From the IMG/VR virus record IMGVR_UViG_2548876863_000002: a DNA stretch of 14,648 nucleotides, one strand, 5' to 3'. Below, in pieces: positions 10,418-14,648 of this stretch. The notes beneath the pieces were generated by a model. The model saw only the letters and a program-made list of their open reading frames with translations. It had not been told where the DNA came from and searched no databases. Position numbers and translations under genes: made by a program. Origin of the DNA: a virus. Its lineage: Duplodnaviria; Heunggongvirae; Uroviricota; Caudoviricetes. Numbering within the stretch: position 1 is the first letter of the stretch; each line of letters opens with the position of its first letter.

Positions 10418-10660
10418 TCATGCTCCGGTGGTGAACAGGTCTAACGCTTCCTTCGATTTACGCACCGCTTCGATAGTGCGGGTCGTGATATCTGAATTAG
10501 CGCCGCCTGACTGGAAGTGAATTTTGAATAGCTCAAGCTTCAGCTCGTCAGTGCCAATGAACTGAAATGCTTCCTCTGCGGCTTCGTTCTGGTTCATGAC
10601 CAGTTTGTAAATCTCTAACTGGAATTTCTGTTCTTCAGTCATAGGAATAATCTCTGCCAT
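10418..10660 (-). CDS. Hypothetical protein (80 aa) immediately upstream of the small-terminase gene
   Basis: ATG at 10660-10658 with GGAG 6 nt upstream. P22 has an 80-codon ORF at this position. Acidic, helical-looking product; function unknown. Confidence 0.55.
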   Translation of the reverse strand: MAEIIPMTEEQKFQLEIYKLVMNQNEAAEEAFQFIGTDELKLELFKIHFQSGGANSDITTRTIEAVRKSKEALDLFTTGA

Positions 10661-10681
10661 TGTTGGCTCCGTTTATCCGTT

Positions 10682-10707
10682 AAAAGGGATATCAGTTAAG
10701 ATATCCC
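10682..10707 (-). terminator. Hairpin / weak intrinsic terminator between the 126-aa and 80-aa genes
   Basis: Perfect inverted repeat GGGATATC-(6 nt)-GATATCCC; on the minus-strand RNA it is followed by UUUUAACGG (only four U). Confidence 0.4.
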
Positions 10708-10763
10708 GTGTAGGGTATAAGCCATTATCAAAGCCACTCTGTAGGGAATGGCTTTTGTAATAA

Positions 10764-11144
10764 CTACTGTTCGCTTAGCTTCTGCTTCAGCAAGTAACCT
10801 TCGAGCATCCAGATTTTGTTTACAGCATTTTGCCGGGCAATCTTCCGACCAATTTCTGCATCAAAGTTTTCCGGGCTTGCACAGGCACTCTCTCCGGTGA
10901 CGGTGAAGCCATTCTTCAGCACCAGTACGCAGAAAGTGAGCAACTTCAATGGTGATAAATCACGATCGCCTTCTTCTGGTTTTTCCCTGCCACAATATTC
11001 GTTGCTGGAAATGGCACCATTTCGTCCATCATAAGCAGTAAAGTAATGCTCGCTTTTAATCACGTCTTCGATGTGCTGCGGAGTGATTCTCGGAGCGGTT
11101 TTGCCTTTCTCAACGATTTCTTTTTCGATTTGCTGGTCGTTCAT
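10764..11144 (-). CDS. Hypothetical phage protein (126 aa)
   Basis: ATG at 11144-11142 with a weak AGGG-type ribosome-binding site. Product MNDQQIEKEIVEKGKTAPRITPQHIEDVIKSEHYFTAYDG...NGFTVTGESACASPENFDAEIGRKIARQNAVNKIWMLEGYLLKQ. Not recognised with confidence. Confidence 0.55.
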   Translation of the reverse strand: MNDQQIEKEIVEKGKTAPRITPQHIEDVIKSEHYFTAYDGRNGAISSNEYCGREKPEEGDRDLSPLKLLTFCVLVLKNGFTVTGESACASPENFDAEIGRKIARQNAVNKIWMLEGYLLKQKLSEQ

Positions 11145-11434
11145 AATTATGACCCTGTGGAGTGGTTGCTTGATTAGGATGTCTTTCCATCAGTCCGCCA
11201 CCACAAAGAATCTTTTTTTTGCCATAAGGCAGGAGGTTCATCTTTCAGTGGCTGCCAGTGTTATTTCCCCACTTACTGGCTTGGGTTGTTTCGCTGTACT
11301 GCCGTAACTGGTTACCCAGAATAAATTCCGGTTTCATTATCAAGCCCACCCGTAGATGGGCTTTGTAATGGATAGCTGTTGCTCAGTTCTCGTAATGCTT
11401 TGATTTTTCCGATAACGCAGTTTTGCGTTTGCCA

Positions 11435-11956
11435 TCAGCAAGCGATATCGAGAGTCAACTGCAGTTGCTCGCGCCAGTACTCGACATTTGCTTCAATAAC
11501 CGGCTTATCCCATCGCCAGCGAGCCATCTCTCTTGCCCCATTGCTGGCTTTTGATTTCCGGTCATCGCGAATGCGACATGCTTGCTCATATTTCTGCTGC
11601 TCAGTCAGTTCACCGCGAAGCAGACTATCAATGTGCAGGTCGCACCACACAGCAAAACGAGCATCACACCAACGGGCAAATGCAACTGAAAGTTTTGGAT
11701 GTAGCCACGTACCACCACCCCTGTCCTTTCGTGCCTTGCTGGTTTTTACATACCTCGATTGTGAGGGATGTAAAATTTGAGATTCTTTCCCGGTCAACGC
11801 TTCGTCTAAAGCACGAACGTATTCAAGCGTTTCTGCCAAACGCATCCAGTTATCAATGCGTTTCCCAAATCTCTCAGCAACACCTGTGACGTTGATCCAA
11901 CCATCAGTGTTGAAACTGACAATTTCACCTTTGTAATTAAGTGGCACGATATTCAT
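11435..11956 (-). CDS. KilA-N domain protein (173 aa)
   Basis: ATG at 11956-11954. Carries the KilA-N-type signature: ...FGKRIDNWMRLAETLEYVRAL...GGGTWLHPKLSVAFARWCDARFAVWCD. Confidence 0.65.
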   Translation of the reverse strand: MNIVPLNYKGEIVSFNTDGWINVTGVAERFGKRIDNWMRLAETLEYVRALDEALTGKESQILHPSQSRYVKTSKARKDRGGGTWLHPKLSVAFARWCDARFAVWCDLHIDSLLRGELTEQQKYEQACRIRDDRKSKASNGAREMARWRWDKPVIEANVEYWREQLQLTLDIAC

Positions 11957-12158: not shown

Positions 12159-12596
12159 TTACTTCAGGCATTGCGTCCTGATGTACTCCTGCAGGTAGTT
12201 AACCTGCGCGGTTATCCTGTCGATTCCACTTCGGAGACGGTAATAATTGAGTTCAGCATCTGCTGTAAGTCTTGGGCTTTCTCCATCGCCCATGCTGCTG
12301 GCTCCGGTCGTTGACTTTGCACAGGTGGCGGCGACTTGCAGGCGCTTACGACCAGCAGAAACATCAGCACGGAGACTTTCGATAGTCGCGTTAGCATCAG
12401 CAAGCTCCTTTGTATATCTGGCATCGAGTTCTGCTACGTCACGTTGACGCTTCTGCATGTCAGCAATGATGTACGTGGCCTTATCGCGCTGTTCTTTATA
12501 GGCAATGGCTTTATCACGGTAATGATTAACAGCCCATGACAGGCAGACGATGATGCAGATAACCAGAGCGGAGATAATCGCGGTTACTCTGCTCAT
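12159..12596 (-). CDS. Rz: Rz i-spanin (inner-membrane spanin subunit)
   Basis: From the ATG at 12596-12594 the product begins [28 protein letters not shown], essentially the lambda Rz N-terminus. The start overlaps the endolysin stop as ATGA. The track ORF starts 4 codons earlier (MGAAM). Confidence 0.85.
12212..12397 (-). CDS. Rz1: Rz1 o-spanin (outer-membrane lipoprotein), nested in Rz in the +1 frame
   Basis: ATG at 12397-12395 with AAGGAG 7 nt upstream. Signal peptide [20 protein letters not shown] with lipobox Cys, then a Pro-rich mature region ([16 protein letters not shown]). 61 aa, entirely inside Rz. Confidence 0.78.
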
Positions 12597-13097
12597 TGCT
12601 GCCCCCATAAACAGACTTCACGCTCAATCTCACGGCGAGTCATCAGCCCTTTCCATTGCTTACCGCCAGCGTATGTCCAGCGACGTAGCTGGTCACATGC
12701 GCCTTTGATATCACCCTGGTTTATTTTGCGAAGAAGCGTCGATGTTCTGAAATTGCCAGCCCCCCACGTTGTAGACGAACGAGTAAAGAGCGCCGCGCGT
12801 TGTTTCCGGTATATCGACTTTGATGTACGGGTTAATTTGTCTGGCGACCGTGGCAAGGTCTTTATTCAGGAGAGCTTTGCATTCTGCTTCGGTATACGTT
12901 TTACCGAGCATGATGTCTTTTCCTGTATGCCCGTAACATACAGTCCATACACCAACTATGTCTTTGTAAGGATTATGTCTCACACCTTCCAGACCATCGT
13001 TACCACTTGGGCCAGTGATTAACACAGATGCTATAGCAATAGCCCCGCCACTTATCGCCGCTATTACGCTATTTCGTAGTGCCGGTGACATTGCCAT
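12593..13097 (-). pseudogene. SAR endolysin (phage 21 R-type lysozyme) interrupted by a +1 frameshift
   Basis: The N-terminal ORF (12711-13097) has a Gly/Ala-rich signal-anchor-release helix ([16 protein letters not shown]) and the E-x8-D-x5-T catalytic motif ([17 protein letters not shown]). The C-terminal part continues in another frame (12593-12856: ...[55 protein letters not shown]). The frames meet at a C6 run on the plus strand (12760-12765); one fewer G would give a continuous ~167-aa protein reading ...[11 protein letters not shown].... Confidence 0.7.
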
Positions 13098-13272
13098 TCA
13101 ATCTGTCCTCGCGCTCTTTGCGCTTGTAGTACCAGTTGATGCCAAATGTGCCGACAGTACAAAGAATACCAATGATGACAGCCCAGTCATTCAGGGAGAG
13201 AATGCCACCCATCGCAGTCAGTCCTCCGAAGCTGTAACTGAACCATTCTCTGATTTTGTCCATACGGTACAT
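13069..13272 (-). CDS. Class II holin (pinholin-like, two transmembrane segments) with dual-start motif
   Basis: 67 aa beginning M-Y-R-M (ATG TAC CGT ATG at 13272-13261), i.e. two in-frame starts separated by a basic residue, as in lambda S. Gly-rich first segment ([17 protein letters not shown]), more hydrophobic second segment, charged C-terminus. Its 3' end overlaps the endolysin start. Confidence 0.7.
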
Positions 13273-13294: not shown

Positions 13295-13562
13295 ATTTGC
13301 TCTATTTAATTAGGAATAAGGTCGATTACTGATAGAACAAATCCAGGCTACTGTGTTTAGTAATCAGATTTGTTCGTGACCGATATGCACGGGCAAAACG
13401 GCATCAGGTTGTTAGCGCAACCTCTTGCCACCCGCTTTCACGAAGCCAGCCATTGAGCTGGTTTTCTTTTATGCAAAGCACACCGCACCGTAGCCACAGC
13501 GGATAAGGTGAGGGTTTTGTCTGTCTGGTTTTTGGTGGAATGCGCTTTCAGAAATGTCGTGC

Positions 13563-13586
13563 AATAAAAAGGCCGCCTTAGCGACC
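13563..13586 (-). terminator. Intrinsic terminator of the cargo ORF
   Basis: Minus-strand RNA GGUCGC-UAAG-GCGGCC followed by UUUUUAUU; the ORF's UAA stop codon sits in the loop. Confidence 0.55.
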
Positions 13587-13853
13587 TTTATTTGAATTTG
13601 GATTCCCTCTCCATTTCCATTCATCTTTATGAGCTGCAACGCCAAGTTCGGTAAGAGAGTAGTATTGCATTAAGCTATGATATCCGCCGTTATTATCACG
13701 GTCGAAAAAGCCAACAGCAAGATATCCATGACGGACCAATGAGTCAACCATGAGAATCTCATCATCCTGTACGTCAGAATCAGCAATTCTCTCCTGCTTA
13801 AATTGAAGAATTCGATTGAGAAAATGCAGTTCTCTTCCAGAGATTTTTTCCAT
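13578..13853 (-). CDS. Hypothetical small protein, cargo (moron-type) gene between tR' and the holin (91 aa; 118 aa from the alternative start at 13934)
   Basis: The frame is open from the ATG at 13934, which has no ribosome-binding site. The internal ATG at 13853-13851 has GAGG 5 nt upstream. Visibly AT-richer than the flanking late genes and followed by its own terminator. No homolog recognised. Confidence 0.45.
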   Translation of the reverse strand: MEKISGRELHFLNRILQFKQERIADSDVQDDEILMVDSLVRHGYLAVGFFDRDNNGGYHSLMQYYSLTELGVAAHKDEWKWRGNPNSNKGR

Positions 13854-14163
13854 AACAACCTCGTCTAGTTGCTCGTCTATGTTCGCTATGGCAGGCAGTG
13901 ACGATACTGCTTTTCGACTGGCCGGTCTAGCCATAGCTGAAGGGGACCAGTTACGTTTATCAGGCGTCTTTCGACCGATTTCCTGAGGTAGCAGGTTAGG
14001 ATGTGGTGGCTACTACGTGAGACTTAGCTCAGCGCCCTACAGGAAGGTTCTTTGGCTGAGTACCCATTACAAACCCTGTTTTAACCACATGGGGAAGCCA
14101 ACTCTCCCAAATACTTAGTGTCGAGCCTAAGCAGGGCATGAAAGAAGGCTTTCCGTTGTGCTT

Positions 14164-14200
14164 AAAACGCAAAAAGCCCCGAGACGTTAATATCAGGGCT
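14164..14200 (-). terminator. tR'-like intrinsic terminator of the short pR' leader transcript
   Basis: Minus-strand RNA AGCCCUGA-(10 nt)-UCGGGGCU (8 bp, one G-U pair) followed by UUUUUGCGUUUU, about 25-60 nt downstream of the predicted pR' start. Confidence 0.5.
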
Positions 14201-14219
14201 TGAACGAAGGCAGCAACCC

Positions 14220-14261
14220 ATCGTTAGAGTCAAATTTACCCAACTTTATTCAAAAAGTCAA
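14220..14261 (-). promoter_or_regulatory. Late promoter pR' with Q-utilisation region and pause-inducing element
   Basis: Minus strand TTGACT-(17 nt)-TAAATT-TGACTCT-AACGATGGGTT is near-identical to lambda pR' as I recall it (TTGACTTATTGAATAAAATTGGGTAAATTTGACTCAACGATGGG). The -35 is at 14261-14256, the -10 at 14238-14233, and the AACGAT element at 14225-14220. Confidence 0.8.
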
Positions 14262-14303
14262 TATCATGCCGTTAATATGTTGCCATCCGTGGCAATCATG
14301 CTG

Positions 14304-14648
14304 CTAACGTGTGACTGCATTCAAAATGTTGTCTGCGATTGACTCTTCCTTGTGGCATTGAACCACCAGAGCGTCATACAGCGGCTTAACAGTGCGTGAC
14401 CAGGTGGGTTGAGTAAGATTTGGGATTAGCATCGTTACAGCGCGATATGCGGCGCTTGCTGGCATTCTTGAATAGCCGACACCTTTGCATCTTCCGCATT
14501 CTTTCTCAACAACTCTCCCCCACTGCTCTGTTTTTGCTATATCAACTGCCCGACCTGTACCGTGGCAATCTCTGCATCTTGCGCCCGGCGTCGCGGCACT
14601 ACGGCAATAATCCGCATAAGCGAATGTTGCGAGCACTTGCAGTACCTT
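14304..14648 (-). CDS. Q: Late antiterminator Q, lambda type (C-terminal part; 5' end beyond the window)
   Basis: The frame is open to the window edge; the track's M at 14636 is a GTG inside the gene. Sequence ...ATFAYADYCRSAATPGARCRDCHGTGRAVD...CGRCKGVGYSRMPASAAYRAVTMLIPNLTQPTWSRTVKPLYDALVVQCHKEESIADNILNAVTR matches the lambda Q zinc-binding C-terminus from memory. Stop TAG at 14306-14304, about 45 nt before pR'. Confidence 0.8.
   Translation of the reverse strand, partial: KVLQVLATFAYADYCRSAATPGARCRDCHGTGRAVDIAKTEQWGRVVEKECGRCKGVGYSRMPASAAYRAVTMLIPNLTQPTWSRTVKPLYDALVVQCHKEESIADNILNAVTR

What the first reader, a model, noticed from the sequence alone, without database searches (positions are those of the whole stretch)
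13563..13934. Uncharacterised AT-rich cargo ORF with its own terminator at the Q/pR' to holin hotspot
Between the tR'-like terminator and the holin, where Stx phages carry stx and other lambdoids carry porin or tRNA cargo, sits a 91-118 aa ORF I cannot assign to any family. It is AT-richer than its neighbours, has a ribosome-binding site on its internal ATG, and ends in a hairpin terminator with the stop codon in the loop. Flanking sequence on both sides is lambda-like, so this looks like an inserted lysogenic-conversion, regulatory or anti-defence gene. The candidate N-terminal extension (MARPASRKAVSS...) lacks a ribosome-binding site.
Basis: partly seen in the sequence, partly recalled or inferred. 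Interest (0 to 1): 0.6.

Follow-up and report, generated by a model that had tools for sequence, protein, structure and literature searches.

The report
Phage cargo gene behind RNA leader
The flagged ORF is a real 91-amino-acid phage accessory gene of unknown function, and its supposed N-terminal extension is a structured RNA leader (Rfam int-alpA) that sits in front of many unrelated small genes and probably controls their translation.

Summary
About 599 bp (13559-14157, minus strand) are inserted between the late terminator tR' and the holin gene. Phages HK022 and Emek lack this insert.

The insert has four parts:
- a 220-nt spacer;
- an 87-nt leader;
- a 91-aa ORF (13853-13578, 39.9% GC, under purifying selection, no family match, weak winged-helix-like model);
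- a conserved intrinsic terminator, with the stop codon in its loop.

The 118-aa version is an artefact. Its extra 27 codons are the Rfam int-alpA RNA motif (43.7 bits, threshold 35.8). The same leader, at least 96% identical and ending at the same ATG, precedes 19 unrelated small ORF families.

Across about 250 instances from phages and many bacterial phyla, the three helices covary. The P3 loop is complementary to two downstream sites. One lies 8 nt after P1. The other overlaps the ribosome-binding site, inside a small hairpin loop 8 nt before the start codon. I read this as a portable translational control leader on a swappable late-operon cargo slot.

No own promoter was found, so lysogenic conversion is unsupported. 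The protein's function remains unknown. The gene is an ordinary moron. The leader architecture is the interesting part.

The parts
13559..14157 (-). Whole insertion relative to the empty site in HK022 and Emek. The boundary is ambiguous by a 4-nt GCAC repeat: ...TTTTAAGCAC|insert...TTTATTGCAC|GACATTTCTGAAAGC.
   Evidence: Alignment with HK022 and Emek. Flank-only matches in about 175 phage records. The full insert occurs in only 4 of 5426 complete E. coli genomes, plus 2 with a different Q gene.
14171..14199 (-). tR'-like intrinsic terminator of the short pR' transcript (context, not part of the insert): GCCCUG...CGGGGC stem plus UUUUU.
   Evidence: Read from the sequence. It is homologous to the annotated terminator and qut region of Emek and the HK phages.
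13938..14157 (-). 220-nt spacer between tR' and the leader. It is mosaic and of unknown role. Several related cassettes lack it, and there the leader starts directly after the tR' U-tail.
   Evidence: No Rfam hit. No fold signal, z +0.77. Only 2 weak phage matches. No promoter-like site.
13885..13937 (-). Three-way-junction core of the int-alpA RNA motif. P1 is 13937-13930 with 13892-13885. P2 is 13927-13925 with 13918-13916. P3 is 13910-13907 with 13898-13895. The junction nucleotides CUAG, CGAAAAGC and GCCUG are conserved. The false ATG of the 118-aa form (13934) lies in P1.
   Evidence: Rfam RF02996, 43.7 bits against a gathering score of 35.8, E 2e-7. My own covariance model scores 63.6 bits, and this is the only copy in the window. 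The minimum-free-energy fold reproduces P1-P3. Covariation over 68 distinct sequences.
13899..13906 (-). P3 loop L3 (UAUCGUCA). Its UCGUC is complementary to the two GACGA sites downstream.
   Evidence: Read from the sequence. Family-wide loop-to-tail complementarity tests.
13873..13877 (-). Copy 1: GACGA, 8 nt after P1, complementary to L3 (proposed pseudoknot partner).
13854..13873 (-). Hairpin P4. Its loop (13861-13866) holds copy 2, GACGA (13865-13861), which overlaps the Shine-Dalgarno GAGG (13862-13859). The start codon follows directly at 13853-13851.
   Evidence: Minimum-free-energy fold. Copy 2 is enclosed by a hairpin in 105 of 114 family members and ends a median 8 nt before the start codon.
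13578..13853 (-). Cargo ORF of 91 aa, pI 6.0, 39.9% GC. The predicted fold is winged-helix-like: three helices, a beta hairpin and a C-terminal helix.
   Evidence: ORF list. Homologues in Serratia, Yersinia proxima, Sodalis ligni and E. coli at 71-98% identity. Purifying selection. AlphaFold2 pLDDT 72. Fold matches. Only 6 hits among 1.84 billion representative proteins.
13566..13589 (-). Conserved intrinsic terminator that closes the cassette (AAAGGUCGC-UAAG-GCGGCCUUU plus a U-tract). The stop codon falls in its loop.
   Evidence: Fold: dG -13.4 kcal/mol, z -3.3. The same hairpin follows every different cargo ORF in this slot, 0-40 nt after their stop codons.

Best explanation
The region is a self-contained cargo cassette inserted into the leader of the phage late operon, between tR' and the holin gene of a P22-like/lambdoid prophage. 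It has three working parts.

1. An 87-nt RNA leader (13937-13851).
- Shown: it is a member of the Rfam int-alpA family. It has a three-way junction (P1, P2, P3), followed 8 nt later by a sequence complementary to the P3 loop. A small hairpin then presents a second copy of that complement, overlapping the Shine-Dalgarno sequence, just before the ATG.
- Inferred: the P3 loop pairs either with copy 1, a pseudoknot that leaves the ribosome-binding site in an open hairpin loop, or with copy 2, a loop-loop contact that masks the ribosome-binding site.
- Inferred: the leader therefore sets or switches translation of whatever ORF follows. It also makes the cassette's expression independent of where it is inserted.
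- Open: whether a ligand or protein acts on the conserved junction, and whether the effect is activation or repression.

2. A 91-aa ORF (13853-13578).
- Shown: it is a real protein-coding gene and one of at least 19 unrelated small genes found behind the same leader.
- Inferred: it is made late, from Q-antiterminated pR' transcripts, because no promoter of its own was found.
- Inferred: it is a small, slightly acidic winged-helix-like protein. I think it more likely binds a protein or nucleic-acid partner as a phage accessory factor than acts as a classical repressor.

3. A conserved intrinsic terminator (13566-13589).
- Inferred: Q-modified polymerase reads through it, and it stops any tR' leak-through before the lysis genes.

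The conserved leader and terminator also act as homology arms that let cargo ORFs be exchanged between phages (inferred).

My sub-confidences:
- cassette anatomy and non-coding extension: 0.9;
- leader acts in cis on translation: 0.6;
- late-only expression: 0.5;
- protein role as stated: 0.25.
For: Insertion and empty site.

The leader is an int-alpA RNA:
- Rfam hit above the gathering score;
- the same hit in 10 related loci;
- 17 of 20 taxonomically diverse genome loci also pass Rfam's threshold.

Helix covariation over 68 distinct sequences:
- 92.8% of cells paired against 67% in shuffles;
- covariation score 0.60 against 0.13;
- 0 of 500 shuffles reach the observed value, and slid controls score 0.12 or less.

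The conserved block runs exactly from the first base of P1 to the ATG (13937-13851). At 96-100% identity it precedes 19 unrelated ORF families of 52-129 aa.

The extension is not coding:
- the ORF frame stays open through the leader in only 37 of 144 distinct leaders, which equals the chance value (61/64)^28 = 26%;
- the related leader variant is 1 nt shorter and out of frame;
- PGAP aa in one genome and 118 aa in another.

Loop-to-tail complementarity of 5 nt or more, own loop against swapped loops:
- viral set, copy 1: 66% v 6%;
- viral set, copy 2: 70% v 11%;
- viral set, both: 48% v 1.7%;
- independent genome set: 59% v 6.5%, 57% v 12%, both 39% v 2.8%.

Fixed geometry:
- 8 nt from P1 to copy 1;
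- 8 nt from copy 1 to copy 2;
- 8 nt from copy 2 to the start codon;
- 33 nt from P1 to the start codon;
- copy 2 sits in a hairpin loop in 105 of 114 cases.

Other points:
- Conserved 3' terminator.
- Real gene.
- Fold.
- No promoter-like site between tR' and the ORF.
- The Sodalis homologue of the ORF carries the other leader variant in a different slot, so cargo and leader assort independently.
Against: - There are no expression data of any kind. The regulatory role of the leader rests on covariation and geometry alone.
- The direction of control (on or off) is not determined, and no ligand or protein partner is known.
- Rfam classes int-alpA as an sRNA gene, not a cis-regulatory element.
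- G-U (31) against A-C (22) counts in the helices do not settle which strand folds. Strand assignment rests on the constant orientation and distance to the downstream ORF.
- The promoter scan covers only sigma-70 consensus sites, so a weak or atypical promoter in the 220-nt spacer cannot be excluded.
- The protein model is of moderate confidence: pLDDT 72 from 7 sequences.
- All fold matches are weak: PDB E 5e-3 or worse, viral library E 3e-4 or worse.
- The fold resemblance is to a very common fold.
Confidence: 0.7

Rival explanations
1. The leader is a trans-acting small RNA, as Rfam types it. It merely happens to lie upstream of genes, and the ORF has an ordinary, unregulated ribosome-binding site.
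For: Rfam lists RF02996 as 'Gene; sRNA'. The core is compact and stable, and could accumulate as a processed 5' fragment.
Against: In about 250 instances the motif is in the same orientation as an ORF whose start lies a median 33 nt after P1 (interquartile range 31-38). Its P3 loop covaries with the sequence that overlaps that ORF's own Shine-Dalgarno site. No terminator follows the motif itself. A cis role does not exclude an added trans role.
Confidence: 0.1
2. The conserved element works at the DNA level as a recombination site, for example an attC-like folded single strand or a site for a recombinase. It would mediate insertion and exchange of gene cassettes.
For: It marks the exact 5' edge of the variable segment. 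Integrases and HNH endonucleases are among the downstream genes in the wider family. The paper that discovered such motifs notes that attC sites can be picked up as 'RNA' motifs (PMC5737381). The G-U against A-C count is not decisive.
Against: It occurs only on the 5' side of the cassette, while the 3' edge is a different element, a terminator. There are one or two copies per genome and no arrays. No dedicated recombinase is linked in the lambdoid cases. The loop complementarity is to the ribosome-binding site at a fixed distance from the start codon, which a DNA site would not need. Ordinary homologous recombination in conserved flanks explains the sharp borders.
Confidence: 0.07
3. The ORF is a lysogenic-conversion or superinfection-exclusion gene expressed from the prophage. 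It would be transcribed by leak-through of tR' or from an unrecognised promoter, and the downstream terminator would protect the lysis genes from that transcription.
For: The architecture is moron-like: foreign composition, its own terminator, and a hotspot position. pR' is constitutive in lambdoid phages (established knowledge), so tR' read-through would reach the ORF. A distant homologue (P0030) lies in the variable region of P2-like phages between gene A and the portal gene, which in P2 carries tin and old (my knowledge of P2).
Against: No promoter-like site lies between tR' and the ORF. No PADLOC hit for the protein or its relatives. There is no membrane or signal feature. Nothing is known about expression.
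Confidence: 0.2
4. The 118-aa ORF is the true product, and the conserved 27-residue N-terminus is a shared peptide module fused to different C-terminal domains.
For: The frame is open from the ATG at 13934. Many database proteins carry the prefix MARPASRKAVSSLPAIANIDEQLDEVVM. PGAP annotates 118 aa in strain HL15.
Against: No ribosome-binding site precedes 13934. The prefix always ends at an in-frame Met preceded by GAGG. The segment is a covarying RNA structure. The sister leader variant is out of frame, and the frame is open no more often than chance across 144 leaders. Most homologues are called as 91 aa.
Confidence: 0.03

Closest known systems
Rfam RF02996, int-alpA RNA motif (one of the 224 candidate structured RNAs of Weinberg et al. 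2017, PMC5737381)
   Same: The window sequence scores above the curated threshold. It has the same three helices and the same conserved junction nucleotides (CUAG, CGAAAAGC, GCCUG). It lies in a prophage or phage context.
   Different: Rfam types the family as an sRNA gene and its model stops 14 nt after P1. Here the element continues into a fixed expression platform: two loop-complementary sites, a hairpin P4, the Shine-Dalgarno sequence and the start codon. It precedes many kinds of genes, not just int and alpA. I could not read the original supplementary description, so I cannot say how much of this the authors had already noted.
Morons of lambdoid phages (extra genes inserted between conserved neighbours, as defined for HK97/HK022 by Hendrix and colleagues; from my own knowledge)
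   Same: The gene is absent from close relatives at the same junction. It differs in base composition, has its own terminator, and sits at a known variable spot downstream of Q.
   Different: No promoter of its own was found. The cassette carries a conserved structured RNA leader shared by many different cargo genes.
Loop-to-ribosome-binding-site pseudoknots that control translation, for example repZ of IncI-alpha/IncB plasmids (Rfam PK-repZ) and pseudoknot riboswitches such as SAM-II or preQ1-II (from my own knowledge)
   Same: A hairpin loop pairs with sequence at or next to the Shine-Dalgarno site of the downstream gene, and the pairing covaries.
   Different: There is no sequence or structural homology. 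Here there are two alternative pairing sites and a three-way junction with invariant nucleotides. No antisense RNA or ligand is known.
Small winged-helix proteins (PadR/MarR-type regulators, TFIIE-type winged helices, replication terminator protein)
   Same: The predicted topology is helix-helix-helix-beta hairpin-helix. The best structural matches are all winged-helix domains.
   Different: No profile match to any such family. The putative recognition-helix region is acidic, with 7 acidic and 2 basic residues in 21-45. The matches are weak.

Membership tests
Rfam RF02996 int-alpA RNA | Score at or above the curated gathering threshold (35.8 bits) of the covariance model | tested here: met
   43.7 bits, E 2.2e-7, full-length match to model positions 1-71, window 13871-13937 minus strand (confirmed at the gathering setting).
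Rfam RF02996 int-alpA RNA | Three helices (P1 enclosing P2 and P3) supported by compensatory changes, with conserved CUAG, CGAAAAGC and GCCUG junction nucleotides | tested here: met
   The minimum-free-energy fold gives P1-P3. In 68 distinct sequences, 92.8% of cells pair, 10 of 15 pairs show changes on both sides, and 0 of 500 shuffles reach the observed score. Several invariant pairs were fixed by my search pattern and carry no weight.
Rfam RF02996 int-alpA RNA | Association with integrase or alpA genes, which gave the family its name | tested here: not met
   The downstream gene here is an unrelated 91-aa ORF. In the wider set, 3 of 105 downstream genes are integrases, and AlpA is not among the 25 families listed (36 were found). 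The K-12 CP4-57 int/alpA region has no hit. This is a naming association, not part of the Rfam model.
Moron (phage accessory gene cassette) | Present between two genes that are adjacent in related phages | tested here: met
   HK022, Emek and about 170 other phages match both flanks with no insert.
Moron (phage accessory gene cassette) | Own terminator downstream | tested here: met
   Hairpin 13568-13589 plus U-tract, z -3.3. It is conserved behind all cargos in this slot.
Moron (phage accessory gene cassette) | Own promoter allowing expression from the prophage | tested here: not met
   No sigma-70-like site on the minus strand between 13854 and 14232. This was a consensus scan only, so the test is weak.
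Moron (phage accessory gene cassette) | Base composition different from its neighbours | tested here: met
   39.9% GC against 46-52%.
Winged-helix DNA-binding regulators (PadR/MarR-like) | Profile match to a family model | tested here: not met
   No Pfam, NCBIfam or PHROG hit even at E up to 10.
Winged-helix DNA-binding regulators (PadR/MarR-like) | Winged-helix fold | tested here: inconclusive
   The model has pLDDT 72. Best PDB matches are TFIIE, PadR, MarR and RTP with TM 0.54-0.63 and E 5e-3 or worse. Matches to viral models have E 3e-4 or worse.
Known anti-phage defence proteins | Match to a PADLOC model | tested here: not met
   No hit for the ORF or for its distant relatives.

The most novel reading that the evidence does not exclude
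The int-alpA element is not an sRNA. It would be a widespread orphan riboswitch-like translational switch of phages and mobile elements, present from Enterobacteria to Planctomycetota, Acidobacteriota, Actinobacteria and Bacillota.

Its invariant three-way junction would sense a general signal, such as a phage or host protein, a nucleotide messenger or the physiological state of the cell. Its P3 loop would toggle between a decoy site and the ribosome-binding site. It would act as a plug-in controller for any accessory gene dropped behind it, including homing endonucleases, integrases, methylases and morons.

The conserved leader and terminator would double as recombination arms that make the slot a gene-exchange point.
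Probability: 0.3. Interest if true: 0.75.

Novelty: new member of a known kind. Interest (0 to 1): 0.5.

Why it matters
As a gene, this is one more phage moron of unknown function.

The useful results are three.

1. Annotation. The 27-residue prefix MARPASRKAVSS...DEVVM on many database proteins is a translated RNA motif, and their start codons should be moved.

2. A swappable slot. The late-operon site downstream of Q in P22-like and lambdoid prophages is a cassette slot with fixed ends: an RNA leader on the 5' side and a terminator on the 3' side. At least 19 unrelated small genes occupy it. That gives a simple handle for harvesting phage accessory genes.

3. A hypothesis for an unstudied RNA. 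I found no experimental study of the int-alpA motif. Its architecture is conserved and covarying. It points to cis control of translation, and mutate-and-restore reporter experiments can test that directly.

Tried and rejected
- Profile searches of the 118-aa and 91-aa proteins against Pfam, PHROGs, NCBIfam and PADLOC found nothing.
- An exhaustive HMMER profile search of 1.84 billion representatives gave only 6 hits, none annotated.
- Fold searches against the PDB and the viral model library gave only generic, weak winged-helix matches. I did not use the third fold-search job, since the model quality would not support finer claims.
- tRNA scan of the window: none found. The spacer is not a tRNA cargo.
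- The spacer 13938-14157 has no Rfam hit, no fold signal and almost no relatives. I set it aside as mosaic filler.
- I tested whether the classic int/alpA region of E. coli K-12 (CP4-57) carries the motif. It does not.
- I tested for a multi-copy regulon. There is one copy in the window, one in a complete Klebsiella phage, and two in one viral contig. It is not a large regulon.
- The G-U against A-C count meant to fix the folding strand was not decisive.
- A 3' terminator as a general feature of the wider family was rejected. It is common behind small ORFs in the viral-contig set (21 of 36) and rare in the bacterial-genome set (8 of 69).
- Literature searches for 'int-alpA' and 'RF02996' found one paper that only lists the motif in a table, and no functional study. 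The supplement of the discovery paper is not held.
- The simple terminator scan missed both minus-strand terminators. I checked them by eye and by folding.
Full report
**1. What is in the window**

All genes in this part of the window run on the minus strand, in the order of a P22-like/lambdoid late region:
- the 3' part of an antiterminator Q gene (14304-14636);
- a pR'-like promoter (14261-14233);
- a tR'-like terminator (about 14171-14199);
- the flagged ORF (13578-13934);
- holin (13069-13272);
- a lysozyme gene split into two frames;
- Rz and Rz1;
- a KilA-N gene, a gp49/66-family gene and a DUF2560 gene;
- terminase and head genes.

**2.

- The ORF is 118 aa from the ATG at 13934, or 91 aa from the ATG at 13853.
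- GAGG lies 5 nt before the internal ATG.
- The ORF has 39.9% GC, while its neighbours have 46-52%.
- It ends in a strong hairpin with a U-tract (dG -13.4 kcal/mol, z -3.3), and its TAA stop lies in the 4-nt loop.
- About 175 phage records match the two flanks of 13300-14300 but span only about 405 bp. They include HK022, HK97, HK544 and Emek.
- An alignment with HK022 and Emek places the insertion at 13559-14157, between ...TTTTAAGCAC and GACATTTCTGAAAGC. A GCAC repeat sits at both ends.
- Only 4 of 5426 complete E. coli genomes carry the whole insert. Two duck isolates carry the same ORF next to a different Q gene.
- Other prophages carry tRNA-Asn and tRNA-Thr at this position.

**3. The ORF is a real gene with no assignable family**

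- Pfam, PHROGs, NCBIfam and PADLOC give nothing.
- Full-length homologues at 71-98% identity exist in E. coli, Serratia, Yersinia proxima, Sodalis ligni and a few metagenomic contigs.
- A profile search of 1.84 billion representative proteins found only six hits.
- Differences to the HL15 and Sodalis copies fall mostly on third codon positions (27 of 35 and 26 of 40). Synonymous codon changes outnumber non-synonymous ones (22 v 8 and 21 v 13). The sequence is therefore under purifying selection as a protein.
- AlphaFold2 gives a moderate model (pLDDT 72) with a helix-helix-helix-beta hairpin-helix order.
- All fold matches are winged-helix domains and all are weak: TFIIE, PadR, MarR, RTP and uncharacterised viral proteins.
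- The protein is slightly acidic (pI 6.0). The stretch that would be the recognition helix has 7 acidic and 2 basic residues. This argues against a classical DNA-binding repressor.
- A distant relative (P0030) sits 9 nt after a Dam-like methylase, in the variable region of P2-like phages between gene A and the portal gene. Another (P0031) lies in a run of small phage genes. Neither tells us the function.

**4. The N-terminal extension is an RNA motif, not protein**

- The homology search returned about 20 proteins that share only the first 27 residues (MARPASRKAVSSLPAIANIDEQLDEVVM), at about 100% identity. After the next Met they continue with unrelated sequences.
- Rfam identifies that stretch (13871-13937, minus strand) as the int-alpA RNA motif: 43.7 bits against a gathering score of 35.8.
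- In 18 viral contigs that hold the exact core, the conserved block runs from the first base of helix P1 (13937) to the ATG (13851) and stops there.
- Behind this leader, at 96-100% identity, I count 19 unrelated ORF families of 52-129 aa, all starting at the same ATG.
- A sister variant of the leader (about 80% identical) is one base shorter and out of frame.
- Across 144 distinct leaders, the downstream frame stays open through the leader in 37 cases. That equals the chance expectation of 26% for 28 codons.
- The 118-aa form, and the same prefix on many database entries, is therefore an annotation artefact. PGAP itself aa in one genome and 118 aa in another.

**5. The cassette has a fixed 3' end as well**

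- Every cargo ORF in this slot is followed, 0-40 nt after its stop, by the same hairpin, aGGTCGCtaaGGCGGCCttttttATTGCAC. Homology to the holin-proximal flank resumes after it.
- The stop-codon-in-loop feature belongs to this cargo only.
- In several contigs the leader starts directly after the U-tail of tR'. The 220-nt spacer in the window is therefore dispensable. It has no Rfam hit, no fold signal and almost no relatives.

**6. The same leader marks other slots**

- The sister variant lies between the lysis genes and DUF2560/small terminase in P22-like prophages. It occurs in 51 of 5426 E. coli genomes and in Salmonella phage BIS08P22.
- It also lies among head genes of a Klebsiella phage.
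- In every case it sits directly before the ATG of a variable small ORF, such as DUF551 proteins or hypothetical proteins.
- One viral contig close to the window carries both variants.
- The Sodalis homologue of the 91-aa ORF sits in that second slot behind the sister variant. Cargo and leader therefore assort independently.
- A covariance model I built finds exactly one copy in the window, with filters off.

**7. The RNA family is broad and its structure is well supported**

- Most hits show P1 pairing in at least 6 of 8 positions: 123 of 142 in the viral set (87%) and 94 of 121 in the genome set (78%).
- The genome hits span Proteobacteria, Planctomycetota, Acidobacteriota, Chloroflexota, Nitrospirae, Actinobacteria and Bacillota.
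- 17 of 20 genome loci tested pass Rfam's own threshold for int-alpA.
- On 68 distinct sequences, 92.8% of pair cells are standard pairs, against 67% in shuffles. The covariation score is 0.60 against 0.13, and no shuffle or slid register comes near it.
- Pairs fixed by my search pattern carry no weight in this test. The variable pairs of P1, P2 and P3 all show compensatory changes.

**8. A downstream expression platform that I have not seen described**

The P3 loop is complementary to two sites in the tail. In the window, loop UCGUC (within 13899-13906) matches GACGA at 13877-13873 and again at 13865-13861. The second site overlaps the Shine-Dalgarno GAGG and lies in the loop of a 7-bp hairpin (13854-13873) that ends at the start codon.

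| Perfect complement of 5 nt or more | Own loop | Swapped loops |
|---|---|---|
| Viral set (50 distinct loops), proximal tail | 66% | 6% |
| Viral set, Shine-Dalgarno window | 70% | 11% |
| Viral set, both sites | 48% | 1.7% |
| Genome set (70 distinct loops), proximal tail | 59% | 6.5% |
| Genome set, Shine-Dalgarno window | 57% | 12% |
| Genome set, both sites | 39% | 2.8% |

The geometry is fixed:
- a median of 8 nt from P1 to copy 1;
- 8 nt from copy 1 to copy 2;
- 8 nt from copy 2 to the start codon;
- 33 nt from P1 to the start codon.

Copy 2 is enclosed by a hairpin in 105 of 114 cases. Copy 1 is the longer match in 56 cases and the shorter in 12.

The genes served are heterogeneous. 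They include HNH endonucleases, integrases, Dam methylases, DUF1376, Rha and HTH proteins, and most have no family.

**9. Most likely mechanism**

Shown: the anatomy above.

Inferred:
- The leader acts in cis on translation initiation of whatever ORF follows.
- The P3 loop pairs either with copy 1, a pseudoknot that leaves the ribosome-binding site exposed in the P4 loop, or with copy 2, a loop-loop contact that masks it.
- Copy 1 is made first and is usually the better match, so the default state is probably 'on'.
- The invariant junction nucleotides suggest that something, a protein or a ligand, can shift the balance. That step is speculative.
- No promoter-like site lies between tR' and the ORF. 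The cassette is therefore most simply a Q-dependent late gene.
- Its terminator would be read through by Q-modified polymerase and would stop tR' leak-through before the lysis genes.
- The conserved leader and terminator give homology arms for exchanging cargo by ordinary recombination. This explains the knife-edge borders at the start and stop codons.

**10. Comparison with known things**

- The RNA is a member of Rfam RF02996 (tested, met).
- Its Rfam type (sRNA) and its name (int, alpA) do not describe what is seen here.
- The cassette fits the moron concept except that it has no detectable promoter.
- The loop-to-ribosome-binding-site pairing works like the repZ pseudoknot of IncI/IncB plasmids, or like pseudoknot riboswitches, but is not related to them. 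This comparison rests on my own knowledge.
- The protein resembles small winged-helix domains but belongs to no defined family.

**11. Verdict**

- The flagged gene is an ordinary phage accessory gene of unknown function, in a rare allele of a known variable site.
- The most interesting product of the check is the leader. It is a widespread, covarying RNA with a conserved dual-site expression platform, and it marks plug-in slots for accessory genes.
- I rate the finding as a new member of a known kind, with interest 0.5.
- There is a 0.3 chance that the leader is a true regulated switch of a new class, which would deserve about 0.75.

Noticed in passing
window 12593-13097 (minus strand), extra C near 12760: The endolysin gene is split into two overlapping frames (12711-13097 and 12593-12856). 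The window has one extra C compared with the otherwise identical prophage of E. coli OkiPb01684, where the lysozyme gene is intact. This is either a sequencing error or an inactivating frameshift in a decaying prophage.
   Followed up: partly
proteins P0010-P0028 and P0002; L002 3147-3503: Many database proteins from Salmonella, E. coli and metagenomes begin with the 27-residue translation of the int-alpA leader. Their start codons are called too far upstream. PGAP gives the same gene as 91 aa in one E. coli genome and 118 aa in another.
   Followed up: yes
window 13938-14157: The 220-nt spacer between tR' and the leader is mosaic. Parts are shared with some viral contigs and parts with strain HL15. 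It has no Rfam hit and no fold signal, and only two weak phage matches (a Klebsiella phage and an uncultured Caudoviricetes record). Its origin and role are unknown.
   Followed up: partly
L012 3466-3530 and 6394-6494: One viral contig close to the window carries two int-alpA leaders. One lies in the Q-to-holin slot with the same 91-aa ORF. The other lies in the Rz-to-terminase slot with a different ORF.
   Followed up: no
window 10418-11956: The window's own Rz-to-terminase slot holds KilA-N, gp49/Sf6-gene-66-family and DUF2560 genes without any int-alpA leader. In related prophages this slot holds leader-plus-ORF cassettes.
   Followed up: partly
L150 2656-4255: In P2-like phages a distant relative of the 91-aa protein (P0030) follows a Dam-like methyltransferase by 9 nt, together with a DUF7415 protein. 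They lie in the variable region between replication gene A and the portal gene. No int-alpA leader is present there.
   Followed up: partly
L170 5756-5957 and L171 1385-1582: In Pseudomonas peli and Marilutibacter prophage regions, C4 antisense RNA, its a1/b1 targets and isrK-like hits lie 0.5-1.7 kb from an int-alpA element. Several other genome hits lie within about 1.5 kb of a tRNA gene, as expected near integrase ends.
   Followed up: no
L001 698-1911 and 5560-6773: The E. coli OkiPb01684 prophage that matches the window best carries two IS3-family insertions. One truncates Rz and the other lies upstream, in the nin region.
   Followed up: no
window 13566-13589 and 14171-14199: The consensus terminator scan reported neither of the two minus-strand terminators. 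The other should have qualified. Both were confirmed by reading and folding.
   Followed up: yes
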